From the NCBI GenBank assembly GCA_965261595.1, contig CBDHDG010000007.1, forward strand, positions 1,184,001-1,248,000: 64,000 nucleotides of DNA. Reading direction: 5' to 3'. Shown here piece after piece: positions 1,619 to 61,971 of the stretch (the first letter of the stretch is position 1; the number at the start of each line of letters is the position of its first letter). A program made the translations under genes and the position numbers. Below the pieces are notes generated by a model, which saw only the letters and a program-made list of their open reading frames with translations, was not told the origin of the DNA and searched no databases. The stretch comes from a bacterium (GTDB lineage Bacteria; UBA8248; JACPRG01; G963555815).

Positions 1619-3799
1619 ATGAAGTGGTTGCCGTGTCGGGTGTTTGTCGCGCTCTCGGTGTGGGCGTTCGCCGCCTCCACCCCCCCGCCCGCATTCTCGC
1701 AGAGCCCCGCTTTCGCGCAGACCAAGGACATCGGCGTCCTGCCCGCGCGCGTCCGGAAGGAGATGGCCCGGGGCGAGCGCTACGCCCTCCTCATCGGGAT
1801 CGGCCGCCACCAGGACAAGCGCATCCCCGGCCTCAACTACAGCGCCGCCGACGCGAAGGCCATGTACGCGGTCCTCACCGACCCCAATCACGGCCGGTTC
1901 CCGAAGAAGAACGTCCGGCTGCTTCTCGACGAGAGAGCGACGGCCAAGGGCATCCGCAGGGGGTTCACGTGGCTTCGCCGCCGCGCGGGGCCGGAGGACA
2001 TGGCCGTCGGCAACGCCTACATCACTCGCCAGCTTCGGCGGGTCCGCGCCAAGCGCCTCATCACGTTCCTGGACTCGTGCTATTCCGCCGCCATCGTCAA
2101 AAAGGAGGACAGGCCCAAGGCGCTTTTCAATCAGGATTTCTTCGCCAAGTTCAAGGGTGCGGGCCGGGTGACGATCACCGCCAGCGACGGCAAGGAGCTT
2201 TCGCTCGAATCAAAGGACCTTGGGCAGGGGGTCTTCACCTACTACCTTGTCCAGGCCCTCAAGGGCAAAGCCGACGTGAATCAGGACGGCGCGGTAGATC
2301 TCGAGGAGGTCTGGGCGCATGTCCGCAAGCGCGTGACCGACGAGGCCATCCGGCGCGGAAACCGCCAGCGTCCGCAGCTCATCACAAAAAGCCTCTCAGC
2401 GGGGTTCCTCGTAAGCCTGAACCCGGGCGTCCTGCCCCGGTTCCGCAAGCGGCAGGCCCGCCTTCTCGCCCTCCTTCAAAAGCGGCGCGTCTCCGGGTCC
2501 GAGTACGAGGAGGCCCGGAAGGTCCTCGACGGCGAGGGCGACAACCGGCTCCTTCAGGTCGTCCGGGACCTGGCCGACGGCAGGCTCGCCCCCCGGTACT
2601 ACCGTGTCGCGAGGGCCGATGTCCTGCGGGGGAATCGGAAGCGTCCGGCTCAGCCCCCCGCTCAAAAGCCGCGCCGGAGAGAGAGGAAGCCCGAAAGGGC
2701 CGCGTCGGCGGGGACGGGGGACCTCTACATCGTCAGCGAGCCTCCGGGCGCGCGGATCTTCATCGACGGCCGGGACACGGGGAAAAAGACCCCGGTCCTT
2801 CTGGAAGGCATCCCTTCCGGGAATCGCAGGGTCCGGTTGCGGAAGGGCAATTACATGGTGGCGTCGAAAGGTGTGAGCGTTCCGCGGGATGACATCGGCC
2901 AGTTGAAGCTCAAGCTGGAGGTCATGCGGGGCAGGCTCAAGGTCGTCTCCGAGCCCTTGGAGGCAGACGTTTTCGTGGGCAAGAAGAAGGTGGGTCGGAC
3001 GCCCCTGATCGCGTCGGTTCCCGGAGGGCCTCAGGTGATCCGCGTCGTGAAGGCGGGCTACAAGCCATTCGAGCGGAAGATGAATATCTCCGTCCGTCGG
3101 AGCAACCGGCTGATGGCCGTCCTTGTTGTTGACCCAATCCCCCGCGGGATGGTCAAGGTGCCCGTGGGTTGGTTCATCATGGGAAGCAACGAGTCCGATG
3201 ACGAGAAGCCGCGCCACCGCGTTTATTTGGATGAGTTTTTCATCGACAAGTATCCGGTGACGAACGCCCGGTTCCGGAGGTTTGGAACGCCGGACAAGGA
3301 TTTCGGCGCCAAGTTCAACGGCGCTCGCCAGCCTGTGGTGGGCGTGACGTGGACTCAAGCGCGGGATTATTGCAAGTCCGTGGAAAAGCGTTTGCCGACG
3401 GAGGCGGAGTGGGAGAAGTCGGCTCGTGGCGTGGACGGCCGGAAATATCCCTGGGGGAGTCAGTGGGATGGCTCAAAGGTGATCTGGGATAAGAACAGCG
3501 GCGGTAAGACGCACCCTGTGGACCGGACGTACAACACGCACCGGAGTCCGTATGGCGCTGTGGACATGGCGGGGAACACTTGGGAGTGGGTGGCGGACTG
3601 GTACGGAAAGAATTATTACGCCAATGCCCCGGATCGGAATCCAAAAGGACCGGCCTCTGGCAGCGGGCGCGTTTGGCGCGGCGGTTCCTGGTACGGCGGC
3701 GGTACGGCGAACTTCCGCGCGGCGGCTCGCAACAATGGGCGGCCAGTCGACCGGGACTTCAGGATTTCGTTTCATTGCGCCAAGTCTTCAAATAAGTAA
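1619..3799 (+). CDS. Secreted caspase-like (peptidase C14) + PEGA + FGE-sulfatase/C-type-lectin-fold protein; putative DGR target
   Basis: Signal peptide (MKWL...AFA|Q); C14 motifs RYALLIGI, FLDSCYS and GVFTYYLVQALKG; two PEGA repeats (IVSEPPGARIFIDG, VVSEPLEADVFVG); FGE motifs FIMGS, PVTN, RLPTEAEWE, DMAGNTWEWV and RGGSW. Confidence 0.9.
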   Translation: MKWLPCRVFVALSVWAFAASTPPPAFSQSPAFAQTKDIGVLPARVRKEMARGERYALLIGIGRHQDKRIPGLNYSAADAKAMYAVLTDPNHGRFPKKNVRLLLDERATAKGIRRGFTWLRRRAGPEDMAVGNAYITRQLRRVRAKRLITFLDSCYSAAIVKKEDRPKALFNQDFFAKFKGAGRVTITASDGKELSLESKDLGQGVFTYYLVQALKGKADVNQDGAVDLEEVWAHVRKRVTDEAIRRGNRQRPQLITKSLSAGFLVSLNPGVLPRFRKRQARLLALLQKRRVSGSEYEEARKVLDGEGDNRLLQVVRDLADGRLAPRYYRVARADVLRGNRKRPAQPPAQKPRRRERKPERAASAGTGDLYIVSEPPGARIFIDGRDTGKKTPVLLEGIPSGNRRVRLRKGNYMVASKGVSVPRDDIGQLKLKLEVMRGRLKVVSEPLEADVFVGKKKVGRTPLIASVPGGPQVIRVVKAGYKPFERKMNISVRRSNRLMAVLVVDPIPRGMVKVPVGWFIMGSNESDDEKPRHRVYLDEFFIDKYPVTNARFRRFGTPDKDFGAKFNGARQPVVGVTWTQARDYCKSVEKRLPTEAEWEKSARGVDGRKYPWGSQWDGSKVIWDKNSGGKTHPVDRTYNTHRSPYGAVDMAGNTWEWVADWYGKNYYANAPDRNPKGPASGSGRVWRGGSWYGGGTANFRAAARNNGRPVDRDFRISFHCAKSSNK
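3668..3790 (+). other. Putative DGR variable region (VR)
   Basis: Last ~40 codons of the CLec domain. Positions that are AAC/AAT in typical FGE-class template repeats are here NNC/NNT codons (tac ggc ggc ggt; aac; gct; aac aat; gtc gac; gac ttc) between fixed scaffold codons. Confidence 0.7.
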
Positions 3800-3829
3800 C
3801 CCTTGATCACTTTTACCCTTTTGGGGGTC

Positions 3830-3850
3830 CCAGGGGGCGTAGCCCCCTGG
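3830..3850 (+). promoter_or_regulatory. DGR-type target-recognition hairpin/cruciform
   Basis: Perfect 9-bp stem CCAGGGGGC / GCCCCCTGG with a GTA (GNA) triloop, 30 bp after the target stop codon. Confidence 0.75.
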
Positions 3851-3889
3851 TGAACTTTTTTGAGACGGGGGGTATGAAATTTAACGGTA

Positions 3890-4231
3890 ATGGGGCAATC
3901 GCCGGTCATCGTCGAGCGATTCTATGGGTTCCTGGTTTGGATCTTTGAACGGACTTCACAATACCCGAAGACATACCGCTATTCGCTGGGCGGGAAGATT
4001 CAACAGGAAGCCCTCGCGATTCTCGAACACCTGGTTCAGGCCGCTTACCGCAAGCAGAAACGCCCAATCCTGGAAGACATCAATCGAAAGCTCGAATCCA
4101 TGCGGTTCCTGATCCGTTTGAGCAAGGACCTCAAGTGCCTGAGTCTTCGGCAATACGAATACGCCGGCAATGAGTGTATGGAGGTGGGCAACCAGGTGGG
4201 CGGCTGGATCAAAAGCGTGAGGCGGGGATGA
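3890..4231 (+). CDS. avd: DGR accessory variability determinant (bAvd-like four-helix bundle)
   Basis: Basic 113-aa protein with YPKTYRYSLG, LESMRFLIRLSKDL and EVGNQVGGWIK motifs; lies directly after the FGE gene and hairpin. Confidence 0.88.
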   Translation: MGQSPVIVERFYGFLVWIFERTSQYPKTYRYSLGGKIQQEALAILEHLVQAAYRKQKRPILEDINRKLESMRFLIRLSKDLKCLSLRQYEYAGNECMEVGNQVGGWIKSVRRG

Positions 4232-4254
4232 AAACCCACAAGAATCTTTTCCCC
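4228..4254 (+). pseudogene. 5' stub of a probable DGR reverse transcriptase, cut by an IS
   Basis: An ATG overlaps the avd stop (ATGA) and reads MKTHKNLF, like DGR RT N-termini (MKTxKNLF/Y); IS sequence begins at about 4250 and no RT continuation is seen. Confidence 0.65.
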
Positions 4255-4315
4255 CGCTCTAGGGTTTTGTTGGACACTCGATTGATCCATGATTCATGGA
4301 GAAAGGGGTGTCGCG

Positions 4316-4702
4316 ATGAACGAACAAAAGCAAGAGGGGGCTTTGGCGGAGGGCGCCCGCAGGGCGAACGGAGCCAAGGCCCCAGGGCATCGCAGTGAGC
4401 GGGGTCGGTTCTCCTGCCAGCGCAAGCGGGAGGCGGTCCTGCGTCTTTTGCGGGGCGAGAGCCTGGAGACGCTCTGCCGCGAGTTGGGCACGACAGCGGC
4501 TCGGCTTTCCGCCTGGCGCGAGGCGTTCCTTCGCGGGGGCGAGGCGGCGCTCAAAGCCCGCCCGGCGGATGAGCGGGACGAGGAGAACGCCCGGCTCAAG
4601 GCCAAGGTGGGCGAACTCACGATGGAGGGCGAGGTCCTGCGGGAGAAGATCGACCGCCTGGAGGCCGGCCGCCCTTTAGCCGGCAGGAGGTGGAGGCGAT
4701 GA
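4316..4702 (+). CDS. IS3-family transposase OrfA
   Basis: HTH (RKREAVLRLLRGESLETLCRELG) followed by a leucine-zipper-like segment. Confidence 0.85.
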   Translation: MNEQKQEGALAEGARRANGAKAPGHRSERGRFSCQRKREAVLRLLRGESLETLCRELGTTAARLSAWREAFLRGGEAALKARPADERDEENARLKAKVGELTMEGEVLREKIDRLEAGRPLAGRRWRR

Positions 4703-5607
4703 GTCAGGCCCGCTTCACCTCCACGGGCAGAGCCTACGGCCTGAAGCGGGTGTGCGCCCTTTGGGGCTTGGCGCGCTCCACGGTCTACGCGCAACGGCGG
4801 CGAGAGGCGGTCCCCGTTCATGAACGCCCCACGCCCAATAAGCGCGGCCCTGTGGGCCCGTGCACCGATGCGGAACTCCTCGGCCACATCCGGCAGGTCC
4901 TGGAGGACTCTCCCTTCCATGGCGAGGGCTACCGCAAGGTGTGGGCGAGGCTGCGCTTCGCGGGCATCCGCACCAGCAAGGAGCGGGTGCGTCGCCTGAT
5001 GCGGGAGGCGGGGCTTCAGGCCCCCCACCGGGTGGGCAAACCCCGAGGTCCCAAGGCCCACAACGGGACCATCCGCACCGAGCGGCCCGACCGAATGTGG
5101 GGCACGGACATGACGACGACGGTGACCACCGAGGAGGGGGTGGCCTCGGTGTTCGTGGCGGTGGATCACTGCTCGGTGGACTGCGTGGGGATCCATGCGG
5201 CCAAGAGCGGCAACCGCTTCGAGGCCCTGGAGCCGATCCGGCAGGGGGTCGCCGAGCGCTTCGCCGGCTTGGAGGCGGACGTCGCCGAGGGGCTTAAAGT
5301 TCGTCACGACCACGGCCCCGCCTATCTGTCCGATGACTTTCAGCGGGAGATCGCCTACCTGGGCATGACCAGTTCGCCCAGCTTCGTGCGGGCGCCCGAG
5401 GGAAATGGCTACTGTGAGTGGTTCATCCGCATCTTGAAGGAGAATCTCCTGTGGGTGCGCTCTTTCGCCACCGTAGAGGAACTGCGGTGGGCGCTGCTTG
5501 AGTTCAAGAACCTGTACAACCATCATTGGATTCTCGAGGGCTACGGCTACCGAACGCCGGCCCAGGCAAGGCAGGAAAAACTCGCTCAAGTTGCGGAGGC
5601 CGCATGA
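4699..5607 (+). CDS. IS3-family transposase OrfB (rve integrase core)
   Basis: GYRKVWARL, WGTDMT, HDHGPAY and NG..E DDE motifs; ATGA overlap with orfA. Confidence 0.88.
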   Translation: MSQARFTSTGRAYGLKRVCALWGLARSTVYAQRRREAVPVHERPTPNKRGPVGPCTDAELLGHIRQVLEDSPFHGEGYRKVWARLRFAGIRTSKERVRRLMREAGLQAPHRVGKPRGPKAHNGTIRTERPDRMWGTDMTTTVTTEEGVASVFVAVDHCSVDCVGIHAAKSGNRFEALEPIRQGVAERFAGLEADVAEGLKVRHDHGPAYLSDDFQREIAYLGMTSSPSFVRAPEGNGYCEWFIRILKENLLWVRSFATVEELRWALLEFKNLYNHHWILEGYGYRTPAQARQEKLAQVAEAA

Positions 5608-5712
5608 GGTCGAATACCCTCACCCGAGTGTCCAATAACCCAGGGGCGGTCCATCACTTTCACATCCTCAGCGCGCACACCCTTGCACTTCCCTATCTCT
5701 TTAGGGAACGCC

Positions 5713-6718
5713 ATGCGCCTTATTCAAAAGAGCCTCGCAGTTCTCCTACTCGCCGCAGTTCTGCCTGCCCTCTTGTCTTGCTCAGGGACAGAAGCAGACC
5801 GTCTCGATGCTGAAGTGGGTCGCCCGTATCAGGCTGGTCGGTATGCGGAAGCAATTCCCCTGGCGCAACGCTCCCTGGCCATCCGAGAGAAAGCCCTGGG
5901 ACCTGAGCATCCCGATGTCGCAACGGGCCTCAACAACCTAGCCGCGCTCTACGAAGCCCAGGGCGAATACGGCAAGGCTGAGCCGCTTTACAAGCGCTCT
6001 CTTGCCATCGTTGAGAAAACGCTAGGGCCCGAGCATCCCCATTTGGCCACGGTCCTCAACAACCTGGCCCTGGTCTACCAAGCCCAGGGCCGCTACGCCA
6101 AGGCCGAGCCGCTCTACAAGCGCTCCCTGGCCATCCGTGAGAAAGCCCTCGGCCCCCAGCATCCCCAGGTGGCCACGGCCCTCAACAACCTGGCCGTGTT
6201 GTACCGGGCCCAGGACCGAGGCGCGCCGAGCCCCGGTCCAAAGAACACCGGAGAGGGCGCCCCGTGCGGAGACCGCGAAGGCCGAGGCCGGCGGGCTCCG
6301 TTCCTCCAGGGAGATCGTCTCCCACTTCGTTCGCGTGAAGACGATGGGGATCGGCGGGACCCGCGAGGGCAGGCTCACATTCCGGAACATCCTCTTCGAC
6401 TTCAACGCGGCCGAACTGAAACGGGAGTCCCTCGCTCAACTGGCTGAAATGGGAAAGGCTCTATCTTCCCTGACGCGCACACGCGGGATGAAGTTTCGGA
6501 TTGAGGGCCACACCGACGCGAAAGGGAGCGATGCCTATAACCGGAGGCTGTCGCAGGAGCGGGCCAAAGCCGTTGTCCGTCACTTGATCGGAAGATACGG
6601 AGTGCCTCGCTCCAACCTCCAGGCCGTGGGCCAGGGCAAATCCCGACCGGTAGCGTCCAACGAATCGGACGATGGCAGACGCCTCAACCGGCGGGTGGAG
6701 GTGGTGTTGGATGAGTGA
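5713..6718 (+). pseudogene. TPR-repeat + OmpA-domain lipoprotein, frame break near 6215
   Basis: Lipobox LLSC; three 42-aa TPRs (ALGPEHPDVATGLNNLA). The OmpA domain (ILFDFNAAEL, IEGHTDAKGS, NRRLSQERA, NRRVE) is in another frame with no clear independent start. Confidence 0.75.
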
Positions 6719-10069: not shown

Positions 10070-10420
10070 TGAAAACCCTGGGGGACATTTTGAAAACTGT
10101 CCCCCAGACCCCCTCGAAAACTTTCGTTTCGCGATAGCGGGCGGCCCTGAAGGGCCGTCCGCTATCGCAAGAGGCAAATTTCACCGAGGGATGGAGGCAT
10201 GGCCGCGCCAAACAGACGATTTCAATTCACCTAACCTCCAAGCGCGGGTAAGGCCAAGCCAAAGGTTTGACCGGGTAGGCCGGCCATCTTGGCCACCATC
10301 GGATGGCGGGCTGGAAGCCCGCCCTACCAGGGGGTTCCCAACCCCCGGGAGGGGGTCTGGGGGACAGATTTCAAAGCTTGTCCCGCGCGAAGGCGGGGAT
10401 GTCCCCCAGGAATTTTCCCT
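10070..10420. repeat. Structured intergenic repeat (MITE- or ncRNA-like), copy 1, with a REP doublet inserted at ~10273-10328
   Basis: Homologous to 38975-39253; terminal inverted GGGGGACA...TGTCCCCC motifs; long TGAA-loop hairpin; shared core CCTCCAAGCGCGGGTAAGGCCAAGCC. Confidence 0.75.
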
Positions 10421-31417: not shown

Positions 31418-31475
31418 TGATATCCGTGGAATATTTTCGGGCTTGATTTGTTCTTCGCGCTGCGTAGTTTTGGGC

Positions 31476-31504
31476 TTGACGAATAATCCCCCATGCCCTA
31501 TATT
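31476..31504 (+). promoter_or_regulatory. sigma70-like promoter of the IS1595 transposase
   Basis: TTGACG-17 bp-TATATT just inside the left IR, upstream of a GGGGGA RBS and the ATG at 31536. Confidence 0.6.
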
Positions 31505-31535
31505 ATAAGTATCAGATCACAAAGGGGGATACAAA

Positions 31536-32411
31536 ATGGACTTGGTAAAGATTTTCAGACGCTTCCCAGACCACGAATCCTGCATCGAGCATCTTGAGAA
31601 GGTCCGCTTTGGCGATGAGCCATATTGCCCGAATTGCGGAGGGATGCAGGTTGCACGGAAGGCGGACGGACATCGCATAGGCCGGTGGAATTGCCATGAC
31701 TGCAAGTCCTCGTTCAATGTTCTCTCAAAGACCATCTTTCAAAAGACGAAAATCGACCTGCAGATATGGTTTCTGGCCATTGGTTTACTCCTGAATGCCA
31801 AGAAAAGCGTATCTTCGCATCAACTAGGGCGCGATTTAGGAATCAACCATAAGACGGCTTGGTATCTGGCGATGAGAATCCGAAAGGCTATGACCCTTGA
31901 TGGCGGCTTATTGCAGGGAATCATAGAGGCGGATGAGTGTTATATCGGCGGGAAGCCTCGCAAGGGCAACAAGCGCGATGATGACAAGCCGGGCAAGCGC
32001 GGACGCGGAACGGACAAAATGCCCGTCATCGGCGCGGTGGAACGCGGGGCTTCTGTGGTGGCGAAGGTCGCCAATAATGTATCCGGAAAGGGTATCCTCA
32101 AATTCATACAGAAGGCGGTTGACCCTGCGGGTTCCCTGCTCATCACGGATGAGTATCCCGCCTACAACCGAGCCAGAAAAATCATACCTCATGCGGTCAT
32201 CAACCACCAAGTCCAGTATGTCGAAGGCTACAAGCATACGAACACGATTGAGGGTTTCTGGAGCCTTCTGAAGCGGGCATGGTACGGCTCTCATCACAAA
32301 TACACCCTCAAGCACGCTGACGCCTATATTCAGGAGGCTTGCTTCAAATATAACACGCGCAAGCAACCCGACTTGTTCTCTGCATTCATCAAGCGGGCGG
32401 CCTTGGCATGA
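31536..32411 (+). CDS. IS1595-family transposase
   Basis: Zn ribbon CPNCG..CHDC, HTH, IEADECYIGG, ITDEY, HTNTIEGFWSLLKR. Confidence 0.93.
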   Translation: MDLVKIFRRFPDHESCIEHLEKVRFGDEPYCPNCGGMQVARKADGHRIGRWNCHDCKSSFNVLSKTIFQKTKIDLQIWFLAIGLLLNAKKSVSSHQLGRDLGINHKTAWYLAMRIRKAMTLDGGLLQGIIEADECYIGGKPRKGNKRDDDKPGKRGRGTDKMPVIGAVERGASVVAKVANNVSGKGILKFIQKAVDPAGSLLITDEYPAYNRARKIIPHAVINHQVQYVEGYKHTNTIEGFWSLLKRAWYGSHHKYTLKHADAYIQEACFKYNTRKQPDLFSAFIKRAALA

Positions 32412-33871
32412 ATCGCCTGTATTATGGCGACTGCCTGACCATCATGCAGGAAATGCGCGCCGGAAGCGTAGACCTCATTTATCTCGACCCACCCTTCAAC
32501 TCGAACCGCGAATACAACGCCATTTACAAGGATGAGACTGGACGGCCCTTGCCCGATCAAATAGAGGCGTTCTGCGACCTCTGGACACTTGATGAAGAGC
32601 GACAGCGTGTCATTAGACATATGCCCGTTATGTTGCGCGAGGCAGGCCTTGACGATGAGACGACTCAATTCTGGAAACTATGGATGAACGCCTTGAGAAA
32701 CACACAACCGCGCCTTCTCGCCTACCTCTCCTATATGGTTGAGCGATTACTACAGATGAAGTCTATTCTCAAGCCCACGGGGAGCGTTTATCTCCATTGC
32801 GACCCCACGGCCAGCCACTACATCAAGATCATGATGGATAGTATTTTCGGGCATCGGAATTTCAGGAATGAGATTATCTGGTCATACAAGCGATGGCCCT
32901 CTAAGAGTTCCCGATTTCAGACCATGCACGACGTGATTCTGTTTTACGGAAAAGGAAAAACAAACACGTTTCATGTCGCCTATGAACCTGCCAGTGAGAG
33001 TTACCTGAAGCGGTTCAAGGGGAAAACGCAGTATCTCGATCCGGAAACGAAAACGCGAAAAATCCCCGTGGACGAACCCACGAAGGGCATGCCGCTTCGT
33101 GATGTCTGGGACATTTCGATTCTGGCCGGATCATCAAAAGAACGCCTCGGCTACAGAACCCAGAAGCCTCTCGCTCTCCTTGAGCGCATCATCAAGGCTT
33201 CCTCGAATGAAGGCGACGTGGTTCTAGACCCATTCTGTGGATGCGCCACAACGATGGAGGCGGCCCATAGCCTCGGCCGTAAGTGGATCGGAATCGATAT
33301 CGCCATTCACGCCATCAAGCGCGTGGCGCGGATGCGCCTACAGCATCGCCTGGGCTTGGTAGAGGGCGAGGACTTCACCATCGACGGCGTGCCTCGCAAC
33401 GTGGAAGGCGCGAAAGACCTTTGGGAGCGAGACAAATACCACTTTCAAAAATGGGCCGTCGAGGAGGTGGAGGGCTTCGTTACGACCAAGCGGACGGCGG
33501 ACGGTGGAATCGACGGGCGCCTTTACTTCCCGCTTCCCGATAAGCCCGACCTGCAAAGCATGGCCCTTGAGGTGAAGGGCGGAAAGAACGTCAACATAAG
33601 TGATGTTCGCGCCCTCAAGGGTGTATTGGATAATGACGATGCGCTTATGGCGGGTATCATAACCATGGAGCCTTTAGGCGCGGTGAAAGAACGGAATTTT
33701 AGACGTGATATGGCGCAGGCTGGAGATCTCATCGTGAATCGAATGGAGTATCCCCGAATGCAGATGTTGAGCGTTTCGGACATATTCGATGGGAAGCGAT
33801 TTCATACGCCGGGCGTTGTTGGCAAAGGGCAAGGTTCACAAATAGCTCTGCCCGGAACCGTGAAGCGTTAG
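32408..33871 (+). CDS. Beta-class N6/N4 DNA methyltransferase with a C-terminal PD-(D/E)XK (Mrr-like) domain
   Basis: IYLDPPF precedes VLDPFCGCATT; C-terminal ADGGIDG...LEVKGG. Confidence 0.88.
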   Translation: MNRLYYGDCLTIMQEMRAGSVDLIYLDPPFNSNREYNAIYKDETGRPLPDQIEAFCDLWTLDEERQRVIRHMPVMLREAGLDDETTQFWKLWMNALRNTQPRLLAYLSYMVERLLQMKSILKPTGSVYLHCDPTASHYIKIMMDSIFGHRNFRNEIIWSYKRWPSKSSRFQTMHDVILFYGKGKTNTFHVAYEPASESYLKRFKGKTQYLDPETKTRKIPVDEPTKGMPLRDVWDISILAGSSKERLGYRTQKPLALLERIIKASSNEGDVVLDPFCGCATTMEAAHSLGRKWIGIDIAIHAIKRVARMRLQHRLGLVEGEDFTIDGVPRNVEGAKDLWERDKYHFQKWAVEEVEGFVTTKRTADGGIDGRLYFPLPDKPDLQSMALEVKGGKNVNISDVRALKGVLDNDDALMAGIITMEPLGAVKERNFRRDMAQAGDLIVNRMEYPRMQMLSVSDIFDGKRFHTPGVVGKGQGSQIALPGTVKR

Positions 33872-34028
33872 ATTGGGAAGTGTAGCCCATAACTACGCAG
33901 TGCGAAGAATAATCTCCCACAGTCCTGAGATTTCCGGAAGAGCCGAACCGCGCGCCATCACGGATCAAGCGGACGCGCGTGTCTTCTTGGTGAGCGGACG
34001 GGGGTGGGGAAGGAGGGAAAGGGGACTG

Positions 34029-35235: not shown

Positions 35236-36770
35236 CTACATCGGCTTATCGGCTTCCGGGCGTTTCCCCTCTTTCTCGCGCCTCTTCCCATCGGCCCGCT
35301 CCACGGCTTCGCGCAAATCCCTTATCGCCGGGTCCTCGGGGGTGATCCGCCGGGACTTTTCCATATACGCCAGCGCGCGGTGAAGGTCGCCCGCCCTCAG
35401 CCTGGCACGGGCCCAGCCCAGATACATCCCGGCGATCTTCCCCAGTCGCTTCGTGACCTCGGGGTGGCTCGGCCGCAGGACGCCCGCCGCCATGATGAGC
35501 CGGTAGGCGTTCCCTCCCTTCGGCGTGGTCAAGCGCTTGAGGGCGATGAGGGCGTCCGCCTTGGCCAGGAGGGCGCTGAACTTGTCGGCGGGAAGCGATG
35601 CGGGGGCCGGAGGTCTTACGGGAGAACCGGGCCGCCCGCCGGGCGGCGCCCGTCCGGGGGCGAGGCGGGCTGTCACGCCCGCCAGGGCCAGCCGGTACGG
35701 GCCGGGCATCAGCCGTCCGTCCGCAAGCTGCCGGACGAGGGGCAGGAGGAGCGCGCCGCGCTTTCCTCCGATCTCGCCGTCCAGGATCCCGACAGCCTCC
35801 TCGAACTCGACGCCGGTGATCCGCTTGTCCCGGAGGAGCCGCGTCAGCGCGTCGCGGCGGGCATTCTCCCGCGCGAGGGCGGCCGGGTTCAGGCTGATGA
35901 GGAAGCCCGCCGAGAACGAGCCGATGATCCGGGGCTCCTGCGTGTTGTTCCGCCGCCGGGCCTCGTCGGTGACCTTCCGGCGAACATGCGCCCAAACCTC
36001 CTCGATCTCCACGGCGCCGTCGCCGTTCCGGTCGGCCTTTCCCCTCAGGGCTTCCAGCAGGAAATACGTGAAGATCCCGTGGCCGAGCTCCTCCGATTCC
36101 AGGGAGAGCTGCTTGCCGTCGCTGGCCGTGATGGTCACCCTCCCGGTCCCCTGATAGTTCGTGAAAAAATCCTGGTCGAACAGGGCCTTGGGAGCGTCCC
36201 GCTTCTCGACGATGGCGGCCGAGTAACACGAATCCAGGAAAGAGGCCAGCCGCTTCGCCTTGATCCGTTGGAGGCGGCCGGTGATGTAGTTGTTCTCCAC
36301 CGCCGTGGAGGCGATGTCGTCGATGTCGGCGTCGTAACTGACCCAGAACGTCTCGTCACCCTCGGGCGCGCCGTGGCCGGAGTAGTAGACGACGACGGTG
36401 TCGTCCTCTCCCGCTTCGCGGACGAGCCAGTTGAGCCCCTTGCGGATGTTGACGAGCGTCGCACGCTCATCCAGAAGGAGCCGCACGTTCCCTTTCGGGA
36501 ACCGGCCGTGACGGGGGTCGGTCAGGACGTCATACATCGCCCGGGCGTCGGCGACGGTGTACCGAAGGGGAGGAATGCGCCCATCCCGATACCGGCCGAT
36601 CCCGATGATGAGGGCGTACCGCTTGCCCTCGGCCAGTTTGGATTGGATCCGGGGCGTGACGGAGATCGACTTCGTGGCCGCGAGCGAGTCTCCCCGCCCG
36701 CCCGGCGCGAGAAAAACAGGAGCCAGTGTAAAGGAAGAGGACTGCAACGAGGAATGATTGCCGGGGCAAG
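35236..36770 (-). CDS. Caspase-like (peptidase C14) protein with an intact His-Cys dyad and helical C-terminus; signal peptide apparently out of frame near 36730
   Basis: YYSGHG and FLDSCYS; close paralog of the N-terminal half of 1619-3799. Removing one T at cc-ttt-ac joins LPRQSFLVAVLFL to TLAPVFLA..., giving a signal peptide. Confidence 0.85.
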
Positions 36771-38974: not shown

Positions 38975-39253
38975 GGGAAAGTCGCGGGGGGCGCTTTTTG
39001 AAAGGCGCCCCCCCGCACCCCCCAGCAAAACTTTCGTTTGGCGATGGATTGCCGCCCCTGAAGGGGCGGCAATCCATCGTGGAAGCAAATGGAATTTGAT
39101 CGATACAGTCCCTCTGGCCGCGCCAAGCAAACGAGCTTAAACCATCTCACCTCCAAGCGCGGGTAAGGCCAAGCCGAAGGCTCGACCGCAGAAAGTTCTA
39201 AGGGGGTTCTCAACCCCTGGGGAGCGTCTTTCAGGAAGCCCCCCAGGAAATTT
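38975..39253. repeat. Structured intergenic repeat, copy 2
   Basis: Homologous to 10070-10420 with compensatory changes in the hairpin stems. Confidence 0.75.
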
Positions 39254-39302
39254 ATCGTTTATTACTTTTCGCACTGCGTAGTTATGGGCTACACTTCCCA
39301 AT

Positions 39303-40766
39303 CTAACGCTTCACGGTTCCGGGCAGAGCTATTTGTGAACCTTGCCCTTTGCCAACAACGCCCGGCGTATGAAATCGCTTCCCATCGAATATGTCCGAAA
39401 CGCTCAACATCTGCATTCGGGGATACTCCATTCGATTCACGATGAGATCTCCAGCCTGCGCCATATCACGTCTAAAATTCCGTTCTTTCACCGCGCCTAA
39501 AGGCTCCATGGTTATGATACCCGCCATAAGCGCATCGTCATTATCCAATACACCCTTGAGGGCGCGAACATCACTTATGTTGACGTTCTTTCCGCCCTTC
39601 ACCTCAAGGGCCATGCTTTGCAGGTCGGGCTTATCGGGAAGCGGGAAGTAAAGGCGCCCGTCGATTCCACCGTCCGCCGTCCGCTTGGTCGTAACGAAGC
39701 CCTCCACCTCCTCGACGGCCCATTTTTGAAAGTGGTATTTGTCTCGCTCCCAAAGGTCTTTCGCGCCTTCCACGTTGCGAGGCACGCCGTCGATGGTGAA
39801 GTCCTCGCCCTCTACCAAGCCCAGGCGATGCTGTAGGCGCATCCGCGCCACGCGCTTGATGGCGTGAATGGCGATATCGATTCCGATCCACTTACGGCCG
39901 AGGCTATGGGCCGCCTCCATCGTTGTGGCGCATCCACAGAATGGGTCTAGAACCACGTCGCCTTCATTCGAGGAAGCCTTGATGATGCGCTCAAGGAGAG
40001 CGAGAGGCTTCTGGGTTCTGTAGCCGAGGCGTTCTTTTGATGATCCGGCCAGAATCGAAATGTCCCAGACATCACGAAGCGGCATGCCCTTCGTGGGTTC
40101 GTCCACGGGGATTTTTCGCGTTTTCGTTTCCGGATCGAGATACTGCGTTTTCCCCTTGAACCGCTTCAGGTAACTCTCACTGGCAGGTTCATAGGCGACA
40201 TGAAACGTGTTTGTTTTTCCTTTTCCGTAAAACAGAATCACGTCGTGCATGGTCTGAAATCGGGAACTCTTAGAGGGCCATCGCTTGTATGACCAGATAA
40301 TCTCATTCCTGAAATTCCGATGCCCGAAAATACTATCCATCATGATCTTGATGTAGTGGCTGGCCGTGGGGTCGCAATGGAGATAAACGCTCCCCGTGGG
40401 CTTGAGAATAGACTTCATCTGTAGTAATCGCTCAACCATATAGGAGAGGTAGGCGAGAAGGCGCGGTTGTGTGTTTCTCAAGGCGTTCATCCATAGTTTC
40501 CAGAATTGAGTCGTCTCATCGTCAAGGCCTGCCTCGCGCAACATAACGGGCATATGTCTAATGACACGCTGTCGCTCTTCATCAAGTGTCCAGAGGTCGC
40601 AGAACGCCTCTATTTGATCGGGCAAGGGCCGTCCAGTCTCATCCTTGTAAATGGCGTTGTATTCGCGGTTCGAGTTGAAGGGTGGGTCGAGATAAATGAG
40701 GTCTACGCTTCCGGCGCGCATTTCCTGCATGATGGTCAGGCAGTCGCCATAATACAGGCGATTCAT
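39303..40766 (-). CDS. DNA methyltransferase-endonuclease passenger (copy 2)
   Basis: Protein identical to 32408-33871. Confidence 0.88.
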   Translation of the reverse strand: MNRLYYGDCLTIMQEMRAGSVDLIYLDPPFNSNREYNAIYKDETGRPLPDQIEAFCDLWTLDEERQRVIRHMPVMLREAGLDDETTQFWKLWMNALRNTQPRLLAYLSYMVERLLQMKSILKPTGSVYLHCDPTASHYIKIMMDSIFGHRNFRNEIIWSYKRWPSKSSRFQTMHDVILFYGKGKTNTFHVAYEPASESYLKRFKGKTQYLDPETKTRKIPVDEPTKGMPLRDVWDISILAGSSKERLGYRTQKPLALLERIIKASSNEGDVVLDPFCGCATTMEAAHSLGRKWIGIDIAIHAIKRVARMRLQHRLGLVEGEDFTIDGVPRNVEGAKDLWERDKYHFQKWAVEEVEGFVTTKRTADGGIDGRLYFPLPDKPDLQSMALEVKGGKNVNISDVRALKGVLDNDDALMAGIITMEPLGAVKERNFRRDMAQAGDLIVNRMEYPRMQMLSVSDIFDGKRFHTPGVVGKGQGSQIALPGTVKR

Positions 40767-41638
40767 GCCAAGGCCGCCCGCTTGATGAATGCAGAGAACA
40801 AGTCGGGTTGCTTGCGCGTGTTATATTTGAAGCAAGCCTCCTGAATATAGGCGTCAGCGTGCTTGAGGGTGTATTTGTGATGAGAGCCGTACCATGCCCG
40901 CTTCAGAAGGCTCCAGAAACCCTCAATCGTGTTCGTATGCTTGTAGCCTTCGACATACTGGACTTGGTGGTTGATGACCGCATGAGGTATGATTTTTCTG
41001 GCTCGGTTGTAGGCGGGATACTCATCCGTGATGAGCAGGGAACCCGCAGGGTCAACCGCCTTCTGTATGAATTTGAGGATACCCTTTCCGGATACATTAT
41101 TGGCGACCTTCGCCACCACAGAAGCCCCGCGTTCCACCGCGCCGATGACGGGCATTTTGTCCGTTCCGCGTCCGCGCTTGCCCGGCTTGTCATCATCGCG
41201 CTTGTTGCCCTTGCGAGGCTTCCCGCCGATATAACACTCATCCGCCTCTATGATTCCCTGCAATAAGCCGCCATCAAGGGTCATAGCCTTTCGGATTCTC
41301 ATCGCCAGATACCAAGCCGTCTTATGGTTGATTCCTAAATCGCGCCCTAGTTGATGCGAAGATACGCTTTTCTTGGCATTCAGGAGTAAACCAATGGCCA
41401 GAAACCATATCTGCAGGTCGATTTTCGTCTTTTGAAAGATGGTCTTTGAGAGAACATTGAACGAGGACTTGCAGTCATGGCAATTCCACCGGCCTATGCG
41501 ATGTCCGTCCGCCTTCCGTGCAACCTGCATCCCTCCGCAATTCGGGCAATATGGCTCATCGCCAAAGCGGACCTTCTCAAGATGCTCGATGCAGGATTCG
41601 TGGTCTGGGAAGCGTCTGAAAATCTTTACCAAGTCCAT
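40763..41638 (-). CDS. IS1595-family transposase (copy 2)
   Basis: Protein identical to 31536-32411. Confidence 0.93.
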   Translation of the reverse strand: MDLVKIFRRFPDHESCIEHLEKVRFGDEPYCPNCGGMQVARKADGHRIGRWNCHDCKSSFNVLSKTIFQKTKIDLQIWFLAIGLLLNAKKSVSSHQLGRDLGINHKTAWYLAMRIRKAMTLDGGLLQGIIEADECYIGGKPRKGNKRDDDKPGKRGRGTDKMPVIGAVERGASVVAKVANNVSGKGILKFIQKAVDPAGSLLITDEYPAYNRARKIIPHAVINHQVQYVEGYKHTNTIEGFWSLLKRAWYGSHHKYTLKHADAYIQEACFKYNTRKQPDLFSAFIKRAALA

Positions 41639-41720
41639 TTTGTATCCCCCTTTGTGATCTGATACTTATAATATAGGGCATGGGGGATTATTCGTCAAGC
41701 CCAAAACTACGCAGCGCGAA

Positions 41721-45296: not shown

Positions 45297-46488
45297 GGAT
45301 GAGCGGGAATCACGCTACCAATTTGCGATATTGAAGCGGCTCGGTGTTCATAATACACTTGATAAGATCCTACATCTTGTGGTTCTGGCTTTTTGGGCCA
45401 TTTTCCTATATGTAGTGGTCGTCTGCGTCAAGACATAACCTCGGTTTGATTATTATGGACCCTCTGGGGCCAACGAAGGACGGGAATTTTCACAGGGATA
45501 TGGGCGCAGGAGGGGGACCTGGAAGTTGATGGGGTCAAATACAGTCCGGACGCAGATACTGATGGTGGGGAGATACTGGAGGGGAGGAGGACAAAGGGTA
45601 ACCACCTAAAAGCCCATAACTCATAATTCCGATTCTCTTGAGTGAGATGCACTTAACCCGCATTTCCCATATGGATCATAAGTTTTGTCGGACCGAATGC
45701 CATTTTCTCGTGTAAGATCAAGGTGTTGGCCTCTCCCTGCCATCATCTTGCGAGGGGACCCAATGGGTGAAGCGAAGAAGGGGGCTTTGAAGATCCGTTT
45801 TGACCGTCGGCTGAGGCTTGAGTTTCACGGAACCAGAATCACTTCGGATGCAGGATTGCTGGCCTGCCGGGAGCTGGATGATGCGCTGGGTTTGACGGTG
45901 AGAGCGCCAGTGCAATTGCAAGAGATCCGTCATGGCCGGAACATCCAGCATGAGTTGGCGCCGCTATTGCGCCAGTCGGTCTATAGCCGCTTGGCAGGGT
46001 ATGAAGACACCAACGATGCCGAGCGGTTGGCCCAGGACCCCGCGATGCAAGCCGTGGTCGGCCGCCGAGCGCTTGAGAAGCAGGCGGCGGGCGCCAACAC
46101 CCTGAGCCGGTTCGAGACCGAGGTTCTCACCAGGGAGGAAAATCTCAAGGGGCCGGAGCGAGCTGAACCGGGAGTGGGTGGACCGGGCCATGGCACACTC
46201 ACCCCATCAGCGAATCATCCTGGACATGGACAGCTCGGAAAGCCCCGTCCATGGGGAGCAGGAAGGTACGGCCTACAACGGCCACTTTCGTTGCACCTGT
46301 TATCACCCTCTTTTTTGCTTTAACCAGTTCGGGGACTGCGAAGGGGCGATGTTGCGCCCCGGCAACGTGCACAGCGCCGATGGCTGGCGCGAGTTGCTTT
46401 CGCCCATCGCGGCCCGGTATGAGCGGGCGGGTGTTCGCCGTTACTTCCGAGCCGATGCCGCCTTTGCGCGCCCGGAGGTCTATGAGTG

Positions 46489-47446
46489 CGTGATTATGCC
46501 CTTGACGCAGTAAGACACAAGATATGGTGGTCCCTCGAAAATTGAATCCGACCCACTACATGTGGTATATGGAACTTCAAAGGGTGGAAGCCCCGAGGGA
46601 ACCCCGGGGCGTTGCTACAAGAGAGGACCTCACAGACCCTCCTTGTAGCAAATCCCCAAGCCCGTGTCAACCTCGATTTTCTGGGGGTCTGCCCATGCGT
46701 ACTATCGGCGGTTGCATACTTACAACTGCCCTCATCGCATCTTCCGCCGTCATGGCTGGAGAATCCAACAAGGCCTGTTTTATCGGAAAAGGTGCGGTGT
46801 ACAGCCCCGCTTATGTGGATTTGGAACGAAGAAAACTCATACTTCGCATGTTGGACGATCGCGATTTGGTAGCTTTGTATAAACTTGGATACCGAAACGC
46901 AAAGGAGAAATGGCGTATTTTCATGGTGAGTGAGCATCCAAAAGGATTCCAATACCTGAAGAGCATCCCTGGCTCTACGACTTTCCGTTTTGAAGGGGAA
47001 TTCAAGGTTTTTGAGACGTTGTGCGAGTTCATCTCGTGCAAATAAGTGGAAAATAAGATTTACAAGTGCAGCGCCAGGGGATCCCGCCCCTGGCGCTGCG
47101 GTTCCATCACCACCCAACCTTGAAGGAGGACTGGGGCAATGGAAGCAAAATGCGAAGGATTTGACGTTTTTGAATGGTTCATCTCCGAAGCAGCCTCTAG
47201 GGTTATTGATCTTCTCTTCTATGCGGGTTTCTACTTGATGGGGATAAGGAATAAGAAACCGCCGAAGAAACGCATCCCACTCGAAATTCGGGGCTCTTAC
47301 GTCGGGCCACCAGCCATCATCAATGGGAGGATATGTGGTTCCACGGGTCCCTAAAAGTGACCCCCTCCTGTTGGATAACCACAACATGTAGTGTCTCAAA
47401 ATCGCACCTATATCTTGTGTCTTACTGCGTCAAAGGCATAATCACG
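46489..47446. mobile_element. Non-autonomous IS1595-like cassette B (958 bp) nested in the IS1380
   Basis: 8-bp TSD TATGAGTG (46481-46488 and 47447-47454); 37-bp IR with one mismatch, CGTGATTATGCC(C/T)TTGACGCAGTAAGACACAAGATAT. Confidence 0.92.
46695..47045 (+). CDS. Small secreted hypothetical protein (cassette B passenger)
   Basis: Signal-peptide-like N-terminus MRTIGGCILTTALIASSAVMA. Confidence 0.55.
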   Translation: MRTIGGCILTTALIASSAVMAGESNKACFIGKGAVYSPAYVDLERRKLILRMLDDRDLVALYKLGYRNAKEKWRIFMVSEHPKGFQYLKSIPGSTTFRFEGEFKVFETLCEFISCK

Positions 47447-48447
47447 TATGAGTGCCTGGAAGCGCACAGCTTCCTTTACGCCATCCGCCTTCCCGCCAAC
47501 GACGTGGTGCAGCGAGAGATCGACTTCCTCCTCACCCGCCCGGTCGGTCGCCCGCCCAAGAGACCCATCATCTTCTATTACGACTTCCGGTATCAGGCTG
47601 GAAGCTGGGACCGTTCCCGGCGGGTCGTGGCGAAGGTGGAATGGCACTCAGGCGAACTCTTCCCTCGCGTCGGATTCATTGTCACGAACCTGACGGCTCG
47701 ACCCGAGGGGGTCGTGCACTTCTACAACCAGCGAGGCACAGCCGAGCAATGGATCAAGGAAGGCAAGTACGCCCTGAACTGGACACGCCTTTCCTGTCAC
47801 CGGTTCGTGTGCAACCAGGTGCGGCTCCTTCTCTTCGTCCTGGCGTACAACCTGGGCAATTTCCTGCGCAGGCTAGCCTTGCCCAGGGGGCTCAAGCACT
47901 GGTCGCTGCGAAGCCTCCAGGTCAAGCTCATCAAAATGGGCGGGAGGATTGTGCGGCACGCCCGGCAGATCATCTTTCAATTGGCCGAAGTAGCGGTATC
48001 CAGGGAAGAGTTCGCCATCATCCTGGACCGAATCAACCGATTACGGCCGGTGCCGGTCTAACCTTGTGCAGAGGGTTCCCGGCAGCATGAGGTGATTGGT
48101 TAACGGGTTGAACCGCGAACAAAGGGGACCGAAGGGCGAGGGTCCGCCTTTTGGGGCAGTCGATGGCCGTCAGCACCTTGTTGCGGAGGGTTGGAAGGCT
48201 CTTGACAAACCCATCGGAAGGGGATCAACTGGTTTTCATCGGGAAAGGGGACCGGAAACCACCCAAGCAAGTTGATATGGGAAATTCCGGGTACACCCAA
48301 TGTGGATGGACATTCTTCGCCCGCCCGTCGGGTGAGCATGTTAACTTTGTTTTCCCGAATGTGAGGAGAAAAGCCGCATCGCACGGGACGGCCTTCGACG
48401 TCTCCGCGGGCGATTGGCCTCATGCGCAACCGAGAGGGGAGGGAACG

Positions 48448-50172: not shown

Positions 50173-50259
50173 CTGGAGTTACCCCGTTTCAGTGGACAGT
50201 TTAGGGCTGTCGTCCCCCGCCCTGAGGTGGGCGACAGCCGGTGGACGTAAAGTCTTCTC
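50173..50259 (+). repeat. 87-bp structured direct repeat, copy 1
   Basis: 77 of 87 bases match 61885-61971; starts with an IS3-end-like TGGAGTTACCCCGTTT..GTGGACA followed by a hairpin. Confidence 0.85.
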
Positions 50260-55852: not shown

Positions 55853-55861
55853 GCTGCTCGA

Positions 55862-57916: not shown

Positions 57917-57930
57917 CGTGTCCTCGTGCT

Positions 57931-61883: not shown

Positions 61884-61884
61884 G

Positions 61885-61971
61885 CTGGAGTTACCCCGTT
61901 TTGGTGGACAGGTTTGGGCTGTCGCCCCCAGCTCTGAGATGGGCGATGGCCGGTGGACGTAAAGTCTTCTC
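61885..61971 (+). repeat. 87-bp structured direct repeat, copy 2
   Basis: Matches 50173-50259; ends 1 bp from the SNF2 ATG on the minus strand. Confidence 0.85.

What the first reader, a model, noticed from the sequence alone, without database searches (positions are those of the whole stretch)
1619..4254. DGR that appears to diversify a secreted caspase-PEGA-lectin protein
Seen in sequence: a signal-peptide/C14/PEGA/FGE gene whose last ~40 codons show NNC/NNT codons at would-be AAC/AAT positions, a 9-bp GTA-loop hairpin 30 bp downstream, an Avd-like gene, and a translationally coupled MKTHKNLF start. Established: a CLec-fold VR, a GNA hairpin, avd and RT define a DGR. Inference: adenine mutagenesis generated a hypervariable ligand-binding domain attached to an exported caspase-like module. 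This would be a diversifiable sensor-protease rather than the usual adhesin or tail fibre. I cannot tell without a search whether this fusion is already described.
Basis: partly seen in the sequence, partly recalled or inferred. Interest (0 to 1): 0.9.

Follow-up and report, generated by a model that had tools for sequence, protein, structure and literature searches.

The report
Broken DGR beside caspase-lectin gene
This is the leftover of a bacterial "diversity-generating retroelement" that once rewrote the tip of an exported caspase-PEGA-lectin protein, but its reverse transcriptase has been cut off beside an insertion sequence, so it looks like a frozen relic and not a working system.

Summary
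They are an exported protein gene (1619-3799) with a caspase-like domain, two PEGA domains and a C-terminal FGE-sulfatase/C-type-lectin domain; a 9-bp GC hairpin (3830-3850); an intact avd gene (3890-4231, passes NCBI's Avd model); and an ATGA-coupled start MKTHKNLF (4228) that resembles DGR reverse-transcriptase N-termini.

The element is not functional as it stands. The RT reading frame stops after 8-11 codons at an IS3-family insertion sequence (about 4253-5649). No RT body and no template repeat exist anywhere in the 64 kb. The caspase domain has an in-frame 31-residue deletion that removes the catalytic-His segment. A 99%-identical relative has the same variable region, and two sister sequences have frameshifted avd.

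Past diversification is well supported. Across the 21 closest relatives, variability is concentrated in residues 692-716 (2.28 against 0.82 bits).

Caspase-lectin and PEGA-bearing DGR targets, and degraded cassettes, are already in print. The verdict is a decayed member of a known kind, of modest interest. AlphaFold prediction did not return.

The parts
1619..3799 (+). Former DGR target gene, 726 aa: signal-like N-terminus, caspase-like domain, linker, two PEGA domains, FGE-sulfatase/CLec domain
   Evidence: ORF. Pfam hits, NCBIfam. Relatives with the same architecture.
1619..1672 (+). Putative Sec signal peptide (MKWLPCRVFVALSVWAFA, approximate end)
   Evidence: Read by eye. Relatives share a hydrophobic N-terminus ending ..FAQ/TK. 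No signal-peptide predictor was available.
1772..2404 (+). Caspase-like (Peptidase_C14) domain. An in-frame 31-residue deletion lies at the 2002/2003 junction (PEDM|AVGNAY). The Cys motif DSCYS at 2072-2086 is retained.
   Evidence: only profile positions 115-229 of 233 match. P0001 carries AVVYYSGHG...LEAT at this point; the in-window paralog carries VVVYYSGHG... at the same gap. One search gives the coordinates; the PADLOC caspase model scores 26 bits here against 72.7 for the paralog.
2717..3133 (+). Two PEGA domains
   Evidence: Pfam PF08308, 3.4e-26, 2 stretches. Motif positions.
3146..3781 (+). FGE-sulfatase-type C-type-lectin-fold domain, not an FGE enzyme
   Evidence: Pfam 2.6e-42. PDB matches: FGE 3.1e-29, and the Treponema denticola variable protein 2y3c 5.2e-16. 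In the alignment, the FGE segment LCHDSYC falls on Y--GGGT, so the Cys pair is absent.
3692..3766 (+). Variable region (residues 692-716), now frozen
   Evidence: Column entropy is 2.28 bits here against 0.82 in the FGE core, across 22 aligned sequences. Against P0073, 13 of 25 positions differ here and 30 of 202 outside. Against P0002, 0 of 25 differ. The region aligns with the VR/TR of intact DGRs L006 and L069.
3830..3850 (+). 9-bp GC-rich hairpin with GTA loop followed by a T-run. It could be a DGR target-recognition hairpin, an intrinsic terminator, or both.
   Evidence: The published DGR hairpin pattern is a 7-10 bp GC stem, a 4-nt GRNA loop, and a position 4-34 bp after the VR (PMC3240598, passages read).
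3890..4231 (+). avd (DGR accessory variability determinant), intact, 113 aa
   Evidence: Pfam bAvd 4.1e-19. NCBIfam NF033474 99.3 bits against cut-off 80. 34-37% identical to the Avd of intact DGRs L006 and L069.
4228..4260 (+). 5' stub of the DGR reverse transcriptase gene (MKTHKNLFP..). The start overlaps the avd stop.
   Evidence: It resembles the RT N-termini of L006 (MKTYKHLYPEV) and L001 (..SHANLWPRV). tblastn with two DGR RTs finds no RT body in the window at E<=1.
4253..5649 (+). IS3-family insertion sequence (ends approximate). orfA is 4289-4702 and orfB is 4690-5607. The inverted-repeat core TTGGACACTCG lies at 4270-4280 and 5625-5635.
   Evidence: Pfam HTH_Tnp_1, HTH_21 and rve. NCBIfam transpos_IS3 3e-46. 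Inverted repeats. Sequence.

Best explanation
This locus is a decayed diversity-generating retroelement in a probable Nitrospinota genome.

In its working state, an RT with Avd copied a template repeat with adenine-specific errors. The copy was written into the last ~25 variable codons of an exported protein made of a caspase domain, PEGA domains and a C-type-lectin domain. A GC hairpin just after the gene marked the target.

In the window that machinery is gone. The RT gene ends after 8-11 codons at an IS3-family element. The RT body and the template repeat are absent. The variable region is therefore a frozen record of its last rewrite.

The target protein has also lost the His-bearing core of its caspase domain, so at most it is a non-catalytic exported binding protein.

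Shown: the domain content, the Avd, the RT stub, the IS, the absence of RT and TR in 64 kb, the deletion, localized family-level hypervariability, and VR identity with the nearest relative.

Inferred: that the stub was a DGR RT, that the VR was written by adenine mutagenesis, that the protein is exported, and that no trans-acting DGR exists elsewhere in the genome.
For: Element identity:
- Avd equivalog, 99.3 bits against cut-off 80.
- ATGA-coupled MKTHKNLFP start, like the RT N-terminus of intact DGR L006.

Truncation and loss:
- An IS3-family element follows directly: orfA/orfB and inverted repeats.
- After its right end come about 30-40 nt and then a TPR lipoprotein gene, with no RT-like reading.
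- No TR: a 20-mer with up to 3 mismatches gave 1 match, itself. The repeat finder found none. blastn with word size 7 on the 230-nt VR region gave only self plus hits of 37 nt or less.
- No RT: tblastn with two DGR RTs gave nothing at E<=1. No RVT hit among the 39 large ORFs scanned.

Caspase decay:
- The 31-residue gap is seen against P0001 and against the in-window paralog, 57% identical over 340 aa.

Variable region:
- Family-level entropy is 2.28 bits in the VR against 0.82 in the core.
- 13 of 25 VR positions differ from P0073, against 30 of 202 outside. 11 of those 13 window codons are NNY.
- The VR is frozen: 24 of 24 identical to P0002, while 2 of the last 11 residues differ.

Decay in relatives:
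- Sister sequences P0067 and P0068 read the alternate frame of 3924-4112 and then switch into the Avd frame, which means frameshifts.
- The same target architecture in L001 and L002 is also followed by truncated RTs. In L001, RT residues 1-97 are fused to a DDE_Tnp_1_4 tail. In L002 the RT is in frameshifted pieces.
Against: - Only 64 kb of the genome could be seen. An RT and TR elsewhere could still serve this VR in trans.
- avd, the hairpin and the 726-codon ORF are all intact, which argues that the loss is recent or that some function is retained.
- The RT identification rests on 8-11 residues plus gene position.
- Without a TR, adenine-specific mutagenesis cannot be shown directly for this VR.
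- The frameshifts in P0067 and P0068 and the truncated ORF calls in P0002, P0006 and P0073 could be assembly or gene-calling errors.
- The IS junction could in principle be a metagenome mis-join.
- Two possible target-site duplications (TCC at 4250-4252 / 5650-5652, or CTTT at 4246-4249 / 5657-5660; my reading) would mean the RT was already cut before the IS arrived. The order of events is therefore open.
Confidence: 0.75

Rival explanations
1. The gene is still a live DGR target. It would be served in trans, as a 'remote variable protein', by a second RT/TR pair elsewhere in the genome. The local avd and hairpin would supply the cis and accessory functions.
For: - avd is intact and passes the equivalog cut-off.
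- The hairpin and the VR reading frame are intact.
- Remote targets recognised by TR homology are described in cyanobacteria (PMC7517822, passages read) and TRs located elsewhere in the genome are reported (PMC7159879, passage read).
Against: - The VR is identical to that of the 99%-identical P0002, while residues just outside it differ.
- avd looks frameshifted in two sister sequences.
- No second DGR part exists in 64 kb.
- The rest of the genome could not be searched.
Confidence: 0.1
2. The break is an assembly artefact. In the real genome an intact RT and TR follow avd, and the IS junction is a mis-join at a repeated element in a metagenome-assembled contig.
For: - All the close relatives come from metagenome bins.
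- IS copies are common mis-join points (general knowledge).
- No unambiguous target-site duplication was found.
Against: - The IS is complete within the contig, with both inverted repeats and unique flanks on both sides.
- An independent sign of decay, the caspase deletion, exists in the same gene cluster.
- Relatives L001 and L002 show comparable RT truncations.
Confidence: 0.07
3. The locus has nothing to do with a DGR. It would be an ordinary exported FGE-sulfatase-domain protein with a rho-independent terminator, followed by an unrelated small four-helix protein.
For: - The hairpin plus T-run fits a terminator pattern.
- Only 2 of the 80 related FGE-domain loci carry an intact DGR: a full-length RT in 2 of 80 and an adenine-biased TR/VR pair in the same two. 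FGE domains alone therefore do not imply a DGR.
Against: - Avd scores above NCBI's equivalog cut-off.
- The coupled RT-like start is present.
- Sharply localized hypervariability sits on a conserved scaffold, W-x7-FRAA-x-R-x4-P-x2-R-x4-GFRC.
- The tail aligns to the VR/TR of intact DGRs.
Confidence: 0.03

Closest known systems
Cyanobacterial DGR variable proteins with N-terminal orthocaspase-like peptidase domains (Vallota-Eastman et al. 2020, PMC7517822; passages read)
   Same: - A caspase-family domain is grafted N-terminal to a DGR-diversified C-type-lectin domain.
- Paralogs of the caspase module occur in the same genome.
- Transposases lie near the cassettes.
- A degraded cassette is mentioned.
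   Different: - The protein here has a signal-like N-terminus and two PEGA domains. Most of the cyanobacterial proteins were predicted cytosolic.
- The phylum differs (probable Nitrospinota).
- Here the RT is a stub, no TR is present, and the caspase His segment is deleted.
Treponema denticola variable protein TvpA (PDB 2y3c)
   Same: It has an FGE-sulfatase-type C-type-lectin fold carrying a C-terminal DGR variable region. It is a direct sequence match at 5.2e-16. That TvpA is an exported or surface protein is recalled, not tested here.
   Different: TvpA has no caspase or PEGA module, and its DGR is intact (recalled).
Bordetella phage BPP-1 DGR (mtd-avd-TR-brt) and its target-recognition hairpin (Guo et al. 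2011, PMC3240598; passages read)
   Same: The gene order is target, hairpin, avd, then RT. A GC-rich 9-bp stem lies 31 nt after the gene, within the published ranges of 7-10 bp and 4-34 bp.
   Different: The loop is 3 nt (GTA), not the 4-nt GRNA consensus. No TR lies between avd and the RT. The RT is truncated. This is a cellular element, not a phage one.
PEGA-bearing DGR targets (Roux et al. preprint 10.1101/2020.04.01.020958; one passage read)
   Same: PEGA domains were reported on more than 5 predicted DGR targets.
   Different: The passage I read does not mention caspase-PEGA-FGE triple architectures.
Loci L001 (Rokuibacteriota bin) and L002 (Methylomirabilia bin) fetched here
   Same: They have the same Peptidase_C14-PEGA-FGE architecture with export signals. 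Each is followed by a truncated DGR RT.
   Different: Identity is 45-46%. There is no avd between the target and the RT. Their caspase His and Cys motifs are intact.

Membership tests
Diversity-generating retroelement (complete, functional cassette) | A DGR-clade reverse transcriptase gene | tested here: not met
   Only 8-11 codons remain (4228-~4260) before an IS3-family element. tblastn with the RTs of L006 and L069 finds nothing in the window at E<=1. No RVT hit among the 39 large ORFs scanned.
Diversity-generating retroelement (complete, functional cassette) | A template repeat matching the VR, with mismatches confined to TR adenines | tested here: not met
   There is no second copy of 3601-3830 in 64 kb on either strand. 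The rest of the genome was not available. For comparison, the positive controls L006 (24 of 27 mismatches at TR adenines) and L069 (14 of 20) were found by the same kind of scan.
Diversity-generating retroelement (complete, functional cassette) | The accessory protein Avd | tested here: met
   NCBIfam NF033474 99.3 bits against cut-off 80. Pfam bAvd 4.1e-19.
Diversity-generating retroelement (complete, functional cassette) | A target gene with a C-terminal variable region in a C-type-lectin fold | tested here: met
   FGE-sulfatase 2.6e-42. TvpA 2y3c 5.2e-16. Hypervariability is localized to residues 692-716 across 22 aligned sequences.
Diversity-generating retroelement (complete, functional cassette) | A GC-rich hairpin with a GRNA loop shortly after the VR | tested here: inconclusive
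   A 9-bp stem (8 GC pairs) sits 31 nt after the stop codon, but its loop is the 3-nt GTA. A T-run follows it, so it also fits a terminator.
Diversity-generating retroelement (complete, functional cassette) | Ongoing VR diversification between or within strains | tested here: not met
   The VR is 24 of 24 identical to the 99%-identical P0002. Within-population variation would need read mapping, which is not possible with these tools.
Peptidase C14 (caspase/orthocaspase), active enzyme | A His-Cys catalytic dyad in an intact caspase fold | tested here: not met
   The Cys motif DSCYS is present, but the ..YYSGHG.. segment is deleted as part of a 31-residue gap. That these residues are catalytic is established family knowledge, recalled and not tested here.
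Formylglycine-generating enzyme (catalytic) | The active-site cysteine pair | tested here: not met
   In the alignment to PDB FGE 6muj, the segment LCHDSYC falls on Y--GGGT in the window protein. The role of that Cys pair is recalled.
IS3-family insertion sequence | Overlapping orfA (HTH) and orfB (rve DDE) reading frames, and terminal inverted repeats | tested here: met
   NCBIfam transpos_IS3: orfA 1.1e-10; orfB 3e-46 at 158.3 bits, just under the 160 cut-off that applies to the fused protein. The inverted repeats are 84% complementary over 19 nt.
IS3-family insertion sequence | A 3-4 bp target-site duplication | tested here: inconclusive
   The exact tips are uncertain. TCC or CTTT could be duplications, or chance.

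The most novel reading that the evidence does not exclude
Exported caspase-PEGA-lectin proteins may form a cross-phylum family of extracytoplasmic, DGR-tuned sensor proteases (Nitrospinota, Rokuibacteriota, Methylomirabilia). In that reading, the repeated independent loss of the RT next to them reflects a 'diversify, then lock' strategy, in which a useful binding specificity is fixed by destroying the mutator. The observation behind it: the window, L001 and L002 are the only 3 caspase-FGE loci here that keep any RT trace, and all 3 RTs are truncated.
Probability: 0.12. Interest if true: 0.6.

Novelty: new member of a known kind. Interest (0 to 1): 0.3.

Why it matters
As it stands this is a cautionary example. 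A locus can show nearly every hallmark of a DGR (lectin-fold variable region, hairpin, avd, coupled RT start) and still be dead. An annotation based on those hallmarks alone would over-call activity.

It adds a Nitrospinota-type, export-signal-bearing caspase-PEGA-lectin architecture to the list of DGR targets. Together with L001 and L002, it gives three cases of RT truncation beside this architecture.

If a working copy of this family were found, it would offer a way to ask what an extracellular caspase-like protease coupled to a programmable binding domain does. This particular copy cannot answer that, because both the mutator and the protease are broken.

Tried and rejected
- Searched for a template repeat in the window in three ways. 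None was found.
- Searched for an RT anywhere in the window by tblastn. One search used one query in the wrong frame; this was corrected. A Pfam scan of 39 large ORFs also found none.
- Scanned the 80 related loci for adenine-biased repeats. Only L006 and L069 are clear. L033 gave short weak pairs (8 of 12 and 11 of 17 at A) that I did not pursue. The 158-nt repeat in L018 is not A-biased.
- The idea that overall NNC/NNT codon usage in the tail marks a VR was rejected as uninformative (28 of 44 against 371 of 682). It was kept only for the positions that vary against P0073.
- Rfam and tRNA scans of the window returned nothing.
- phmmer of the N-terminal 314 residues against the PDB gave no hit at E<=0.01.
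It had not finished after 17 polls, so no structural evidence is used and no fold search was run.
- Literature searches for 'diversity-generating retroelement' with caspase plus FGE-sulfatase and with Peptidase_C14 returned 0 papers. Broader searches led to the papers cited.
Full report
**What is at 1619-4254**

The ORF list and sequence show a 726-codon gene at 1619-3799 on the + strand. Its product begins MKWLPCRVFVALSVWAFA.., which I read by eye as a Sec-type signal; no predictor was available.

- Pfam finds FGE-sulfatase (2.6e-42) and PEGA (3.4e-26, two stretches) on the whole protein.
- Peptidase_C14 appears only when the N-terminal 294 residues are scanned alone (7.7e-9), and then only for profile positions 115-229 of 233.
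- The stop codon is followed after 31 nt by a 9-bp hairpin, CCAGGGGGC-GTA-GCCCCCTGG (3830-3850), and a T-run.
- Next comes a 113-codon gene (3890-4231) that matches Pfam bAvd (4.1e-19). It passes NCBI's equivalog model for the DGR protein Avd (99.3 bits, cut-off 80).
- The avd stop overlaps an ATG at 4228 (ATGA) that opens MKTHKNLFP. The intact DGR reverse transcriptase of locus L006 starts MKTYKHLYPEV, and the RT fragment of L001 reads ..SHANLWPRV.

From about 4253 the sequence is an IS3-family insertion sequence.

- orfA (4289-4702) carries HTH_Tnp_1.
- orfB (4690-5607) carries HTH_21 and rve, and matches NCBIfam transpos_IS3 at 3e-46.
- Inverted repeats have a shared core TTGGACACTCG at 4270-4280 and 5625-5635.
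- After the right end there are about 30-40 nt and then a TPR lipoprotein gene. The reading frame there has nothing RT-like.

The RT therefore keeps only 8-11 codons. The exact IS tips are uncertain. Depending on where they are placed, TCC (4250-4252 / 5650-5652) or CTTT (4246-4249 / 5657-5660) could be a target-site duplication, or chance. If either is real, the RT had already been deleted when the IS arrived. If neither is real, the IS caused an adjacent deletion. I could not decide between these.

**No RT body and no template repeat in 64 kb**

- A 20-mer from the VR with up to 3 mismatches matched only itself.
- The repeat finder found no partner.
- A sensitive blastn (word 7) of 3601-3830 against both strands gave only self plus matches of 37 nt or less.
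- tblastn with the RTs of two intact DGRs (L006, L069) found nothing at E<=1, while the Avd queries found 3890-4231.
- A Pfam scan of 39 further large ORFs gave no reverse transcriptase.

The rest of the genome was not visible.

**The caspase module is broken too**

P0001, 99% identical to the window protein over the aligned residues (265 of 266 in residues 35-300), reads PEDM-AVVYYSGHGAPEEGGTYWVPYDADIDDLEAT-AVGNAY. The window reads PEDM-AVGNAY. The junction is at nt 2002/2003.

A caspase paralog in the same window (35236-36747, minus strand; 57% identical over 340 residues) also carries VVVYYSGHGAPEGDETFWVSYDADIDDIASTAV opposite the same gap. The PADLOC caspase model scores 26 bits on the target and 72.7 on the paralog.

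The deleted 31 residues include the SGHG histidine of the His-Cys dyad; that assignment is family knowledge, recalled. The Cys motif DSCYS remains (2072-2086). The 'sensor-protease' reading therefore does not hold for this copy.

Three database relatives (P0002, P0006, P0073) are called as ORFs that start inside or after the caspase domain. This hints at further N-terminal decay in relatives, or at gene-calling artefacts.

**Was the C-terminus really a DGR variable region?**

The domain is an FGE-type C-type-lectin fold. It matches solved FGEs (3.1e-29) and the Treponema denticola DGR target TvpA (2y3c, 5.2e-16). In the alignment the FGE segment LCHDSYC falls on Y--GGGT, so the enzyme's cysteine pair is absent.

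A search restricted to residues 500-726 gave many relatives. I aligned the window fragment with the 21 listed hits of 57% identity or more, leaving out the frameshifted P0003.

- Column entropy is 0.82 bits over the FGE core and 2.28 bits over residues 692-716.
- The scaffold is conserved: W-x7-FRAA-x-R-x4-P-x2-R-x4-GFRC.
- Against P0073 (81% identical), 13 of 25 VR positions differ, against 30 of 202 outside. 11 of those 13 window codons end in C or T (p=0.024 against the gene's 371 of 682).
- Over the whole tail the codon bias is unremarkable (28 of 44).
- The DNA aligns with the VR and TR of the intact DGRs L006 and L069. Many of the window's variable codons sit where those TRs have AAC.

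Past DGR writing is thus well supported. It remains inferred, because this lineage's own TR is unknown.

**Signs that diversification has stopped**

- P0002 is 99% identical and has the same VR (24 of 24), yet differs at 2 of the last 11 residues (H719R, S723A).
- Of the 6 Avd relatives found, one is the window's own protein.
- Two others, P0067 and P0068, begin with the peptide of the alternate frame of 3924-4112 and then switch into the Avd frame at two different points. That means two independent frameshifts in sister sequences, or sequencing errors.

**Comparators**

- Only 2 of the 80 have an intact DGR. L006 has a kinase-FGE target with 24 of 27 TR/VR mismatches at TR adenines. L069 has 14 of 20.
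- Four loci tested by Pfam have caspase-FGE targets: L001, L002, L033 and L035. L001 and L002 also have PEGA and export signals.
- L001 and L002 are each followed by a truncated RT. In L001, RT residues 1-97 are fused to the tail of a DDE_Tnp_1_4 transposase. In L002 the RT is in frameshifted pieces up to about residue 164.
- L033 and L035 show no RT or Avd.
- L018 (TIR-FGE) keeps an Avd fragment.

In this sample I saw no caspase-FGE target beside an intact DGR.

**Comparison with what is known**

- Orthocaspase-like N-termini on DGR variable proteins, remote targets, transposases near cassettes and a degraded cassette are described for cyanobacteria (PMC7517822, passages read).
- A CHAT/TIR target and caspase-type effectors near DGRs are in PMC10907252 (passages).
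- FGE-domain fusions in conflict systems are in PMC7159879 (passages).
- PEGA domains on more than 5 DGR targets are in the preprint 10.1101/2020.04.01.020958 (one passage; its supplements were closed).
- DGR hairpins are described as 7-10 bp GC stems with 4-nt GRNA loops, 4-34 bp after the VR (PMC3240598, passages). The hairpin here fits in stem and distance but not in loop, and it also fits a terminator.
- My searches for the exact triple fusion returned no paper. They cover open full texts only.

**Verdict**

This is a decayed DGR cassette. The target, hairpin and avd are kept. The RT is cut to a stub beside an IS3-family element, the TR is gone from view, the caspase His segment is deleted, and the VR is frozen.

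It is a new member of a known kind and of modest interest. Confidence is about 0.75. The main open alternative is a trans-acting DGR elsewhere in the genome.

The organism is probably a Nitrospinota bacterium, judged only from the names that sources give to relatives P0009, P0012 and P0113. A structure prediction was requested but never returned, so no structural claim is made.

Noticed in passing
window 31454-33913 (+) and 39261-41720 (-): Two 100% identical 2460-bp inverted copies. Each encodes an IS1595-type transposase (291 aa) plus an N6/N4 DNA methylase (487 aa). They bracket 5347 bp that hold an ECF sigma factor, the intact caspase paralog (35236-36747) and a zinc-ADH piece. The arrangement looks like a composite transposon with a methylase as passenger.
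   Followed up: partly
window 35236-36747 (-): A 503-aa caspase paralog, 57% identical to the target's N-terminal 340 residues. It has an intact YYSGHG segment and no PEGA or FGE part. It shows that the caspase module exists as a stand-alone gene in the same genome.
   Followed up: yes
window 52913-63461 (-): A defence-island-like run. It holds a Type III restriction enzyme (979 aa, PADLOC REase_III 1114.8 bits), a Type III methyltransferase (735 aa), DUF4391 (252 aa), an SNF2-type helicase (1143 aa, best PADLOC hit 'HKD+Snf2'), and a HEPN_RES_NTD1+RES domain protein (364 aa).
   Followed up: partly
window 45685-46323 and 47333-48061 (+): A DDE_Tnp_1_4 transposase in two pieces (profile positions 3-115 and 231-434 of 435), about 1 kb apart. 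It is probably an interrupted IS. The same transposase family truncates the RT in locus L001.
   Followed up: no
window 5683-6718 (+): A TPR lipoprotein ORF (5683-6447) and an OmpA-domain ORF (6137-6718) overlap in different frames. The third 126-nt TPR repeat is degenerate. This could be a frameshifted TPR-OmpA gene or a sequencing error.
   Followed up: no
window 10200-10273 / 39115-39188 and 50173-50259 / 61885-61971: Two pairs of dispersed direct repeats: 74 nt at 84% and 87 nt at 89%. They have no Rfam match. Their nature is unknown.
   Followed up: no
L006 6422-8302 and 8717-8986: The intact-DGR comparator L006 carries a second kinase-FGE gene. It is followed by a 90-residue RT fragment, 87% identical to the locus's full RT. 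This is another partial duplicate or relic.
   Followed up: no
protein P0003 (941 aa, database relative): Its C-terminus departs from the FGE frame just before the VR and reads ..AARGTTTE... That is what GGSWNNN would give one base out of frame. It suggests a frameshifted target whose VR still looks template-like (AAC-rich). No DNA was available to check this.
   Followed up: no
window 2264-2308 (target residues ~216-230): The caspase-like domain contains a DVNQDGAVDLEE loop that gives a weak EF-hand_5 hit (E 0.04). The D-x-D-G core is invariant in the 10-sequence alignment. It may be a calcium-binding loop.
   Followed up: no
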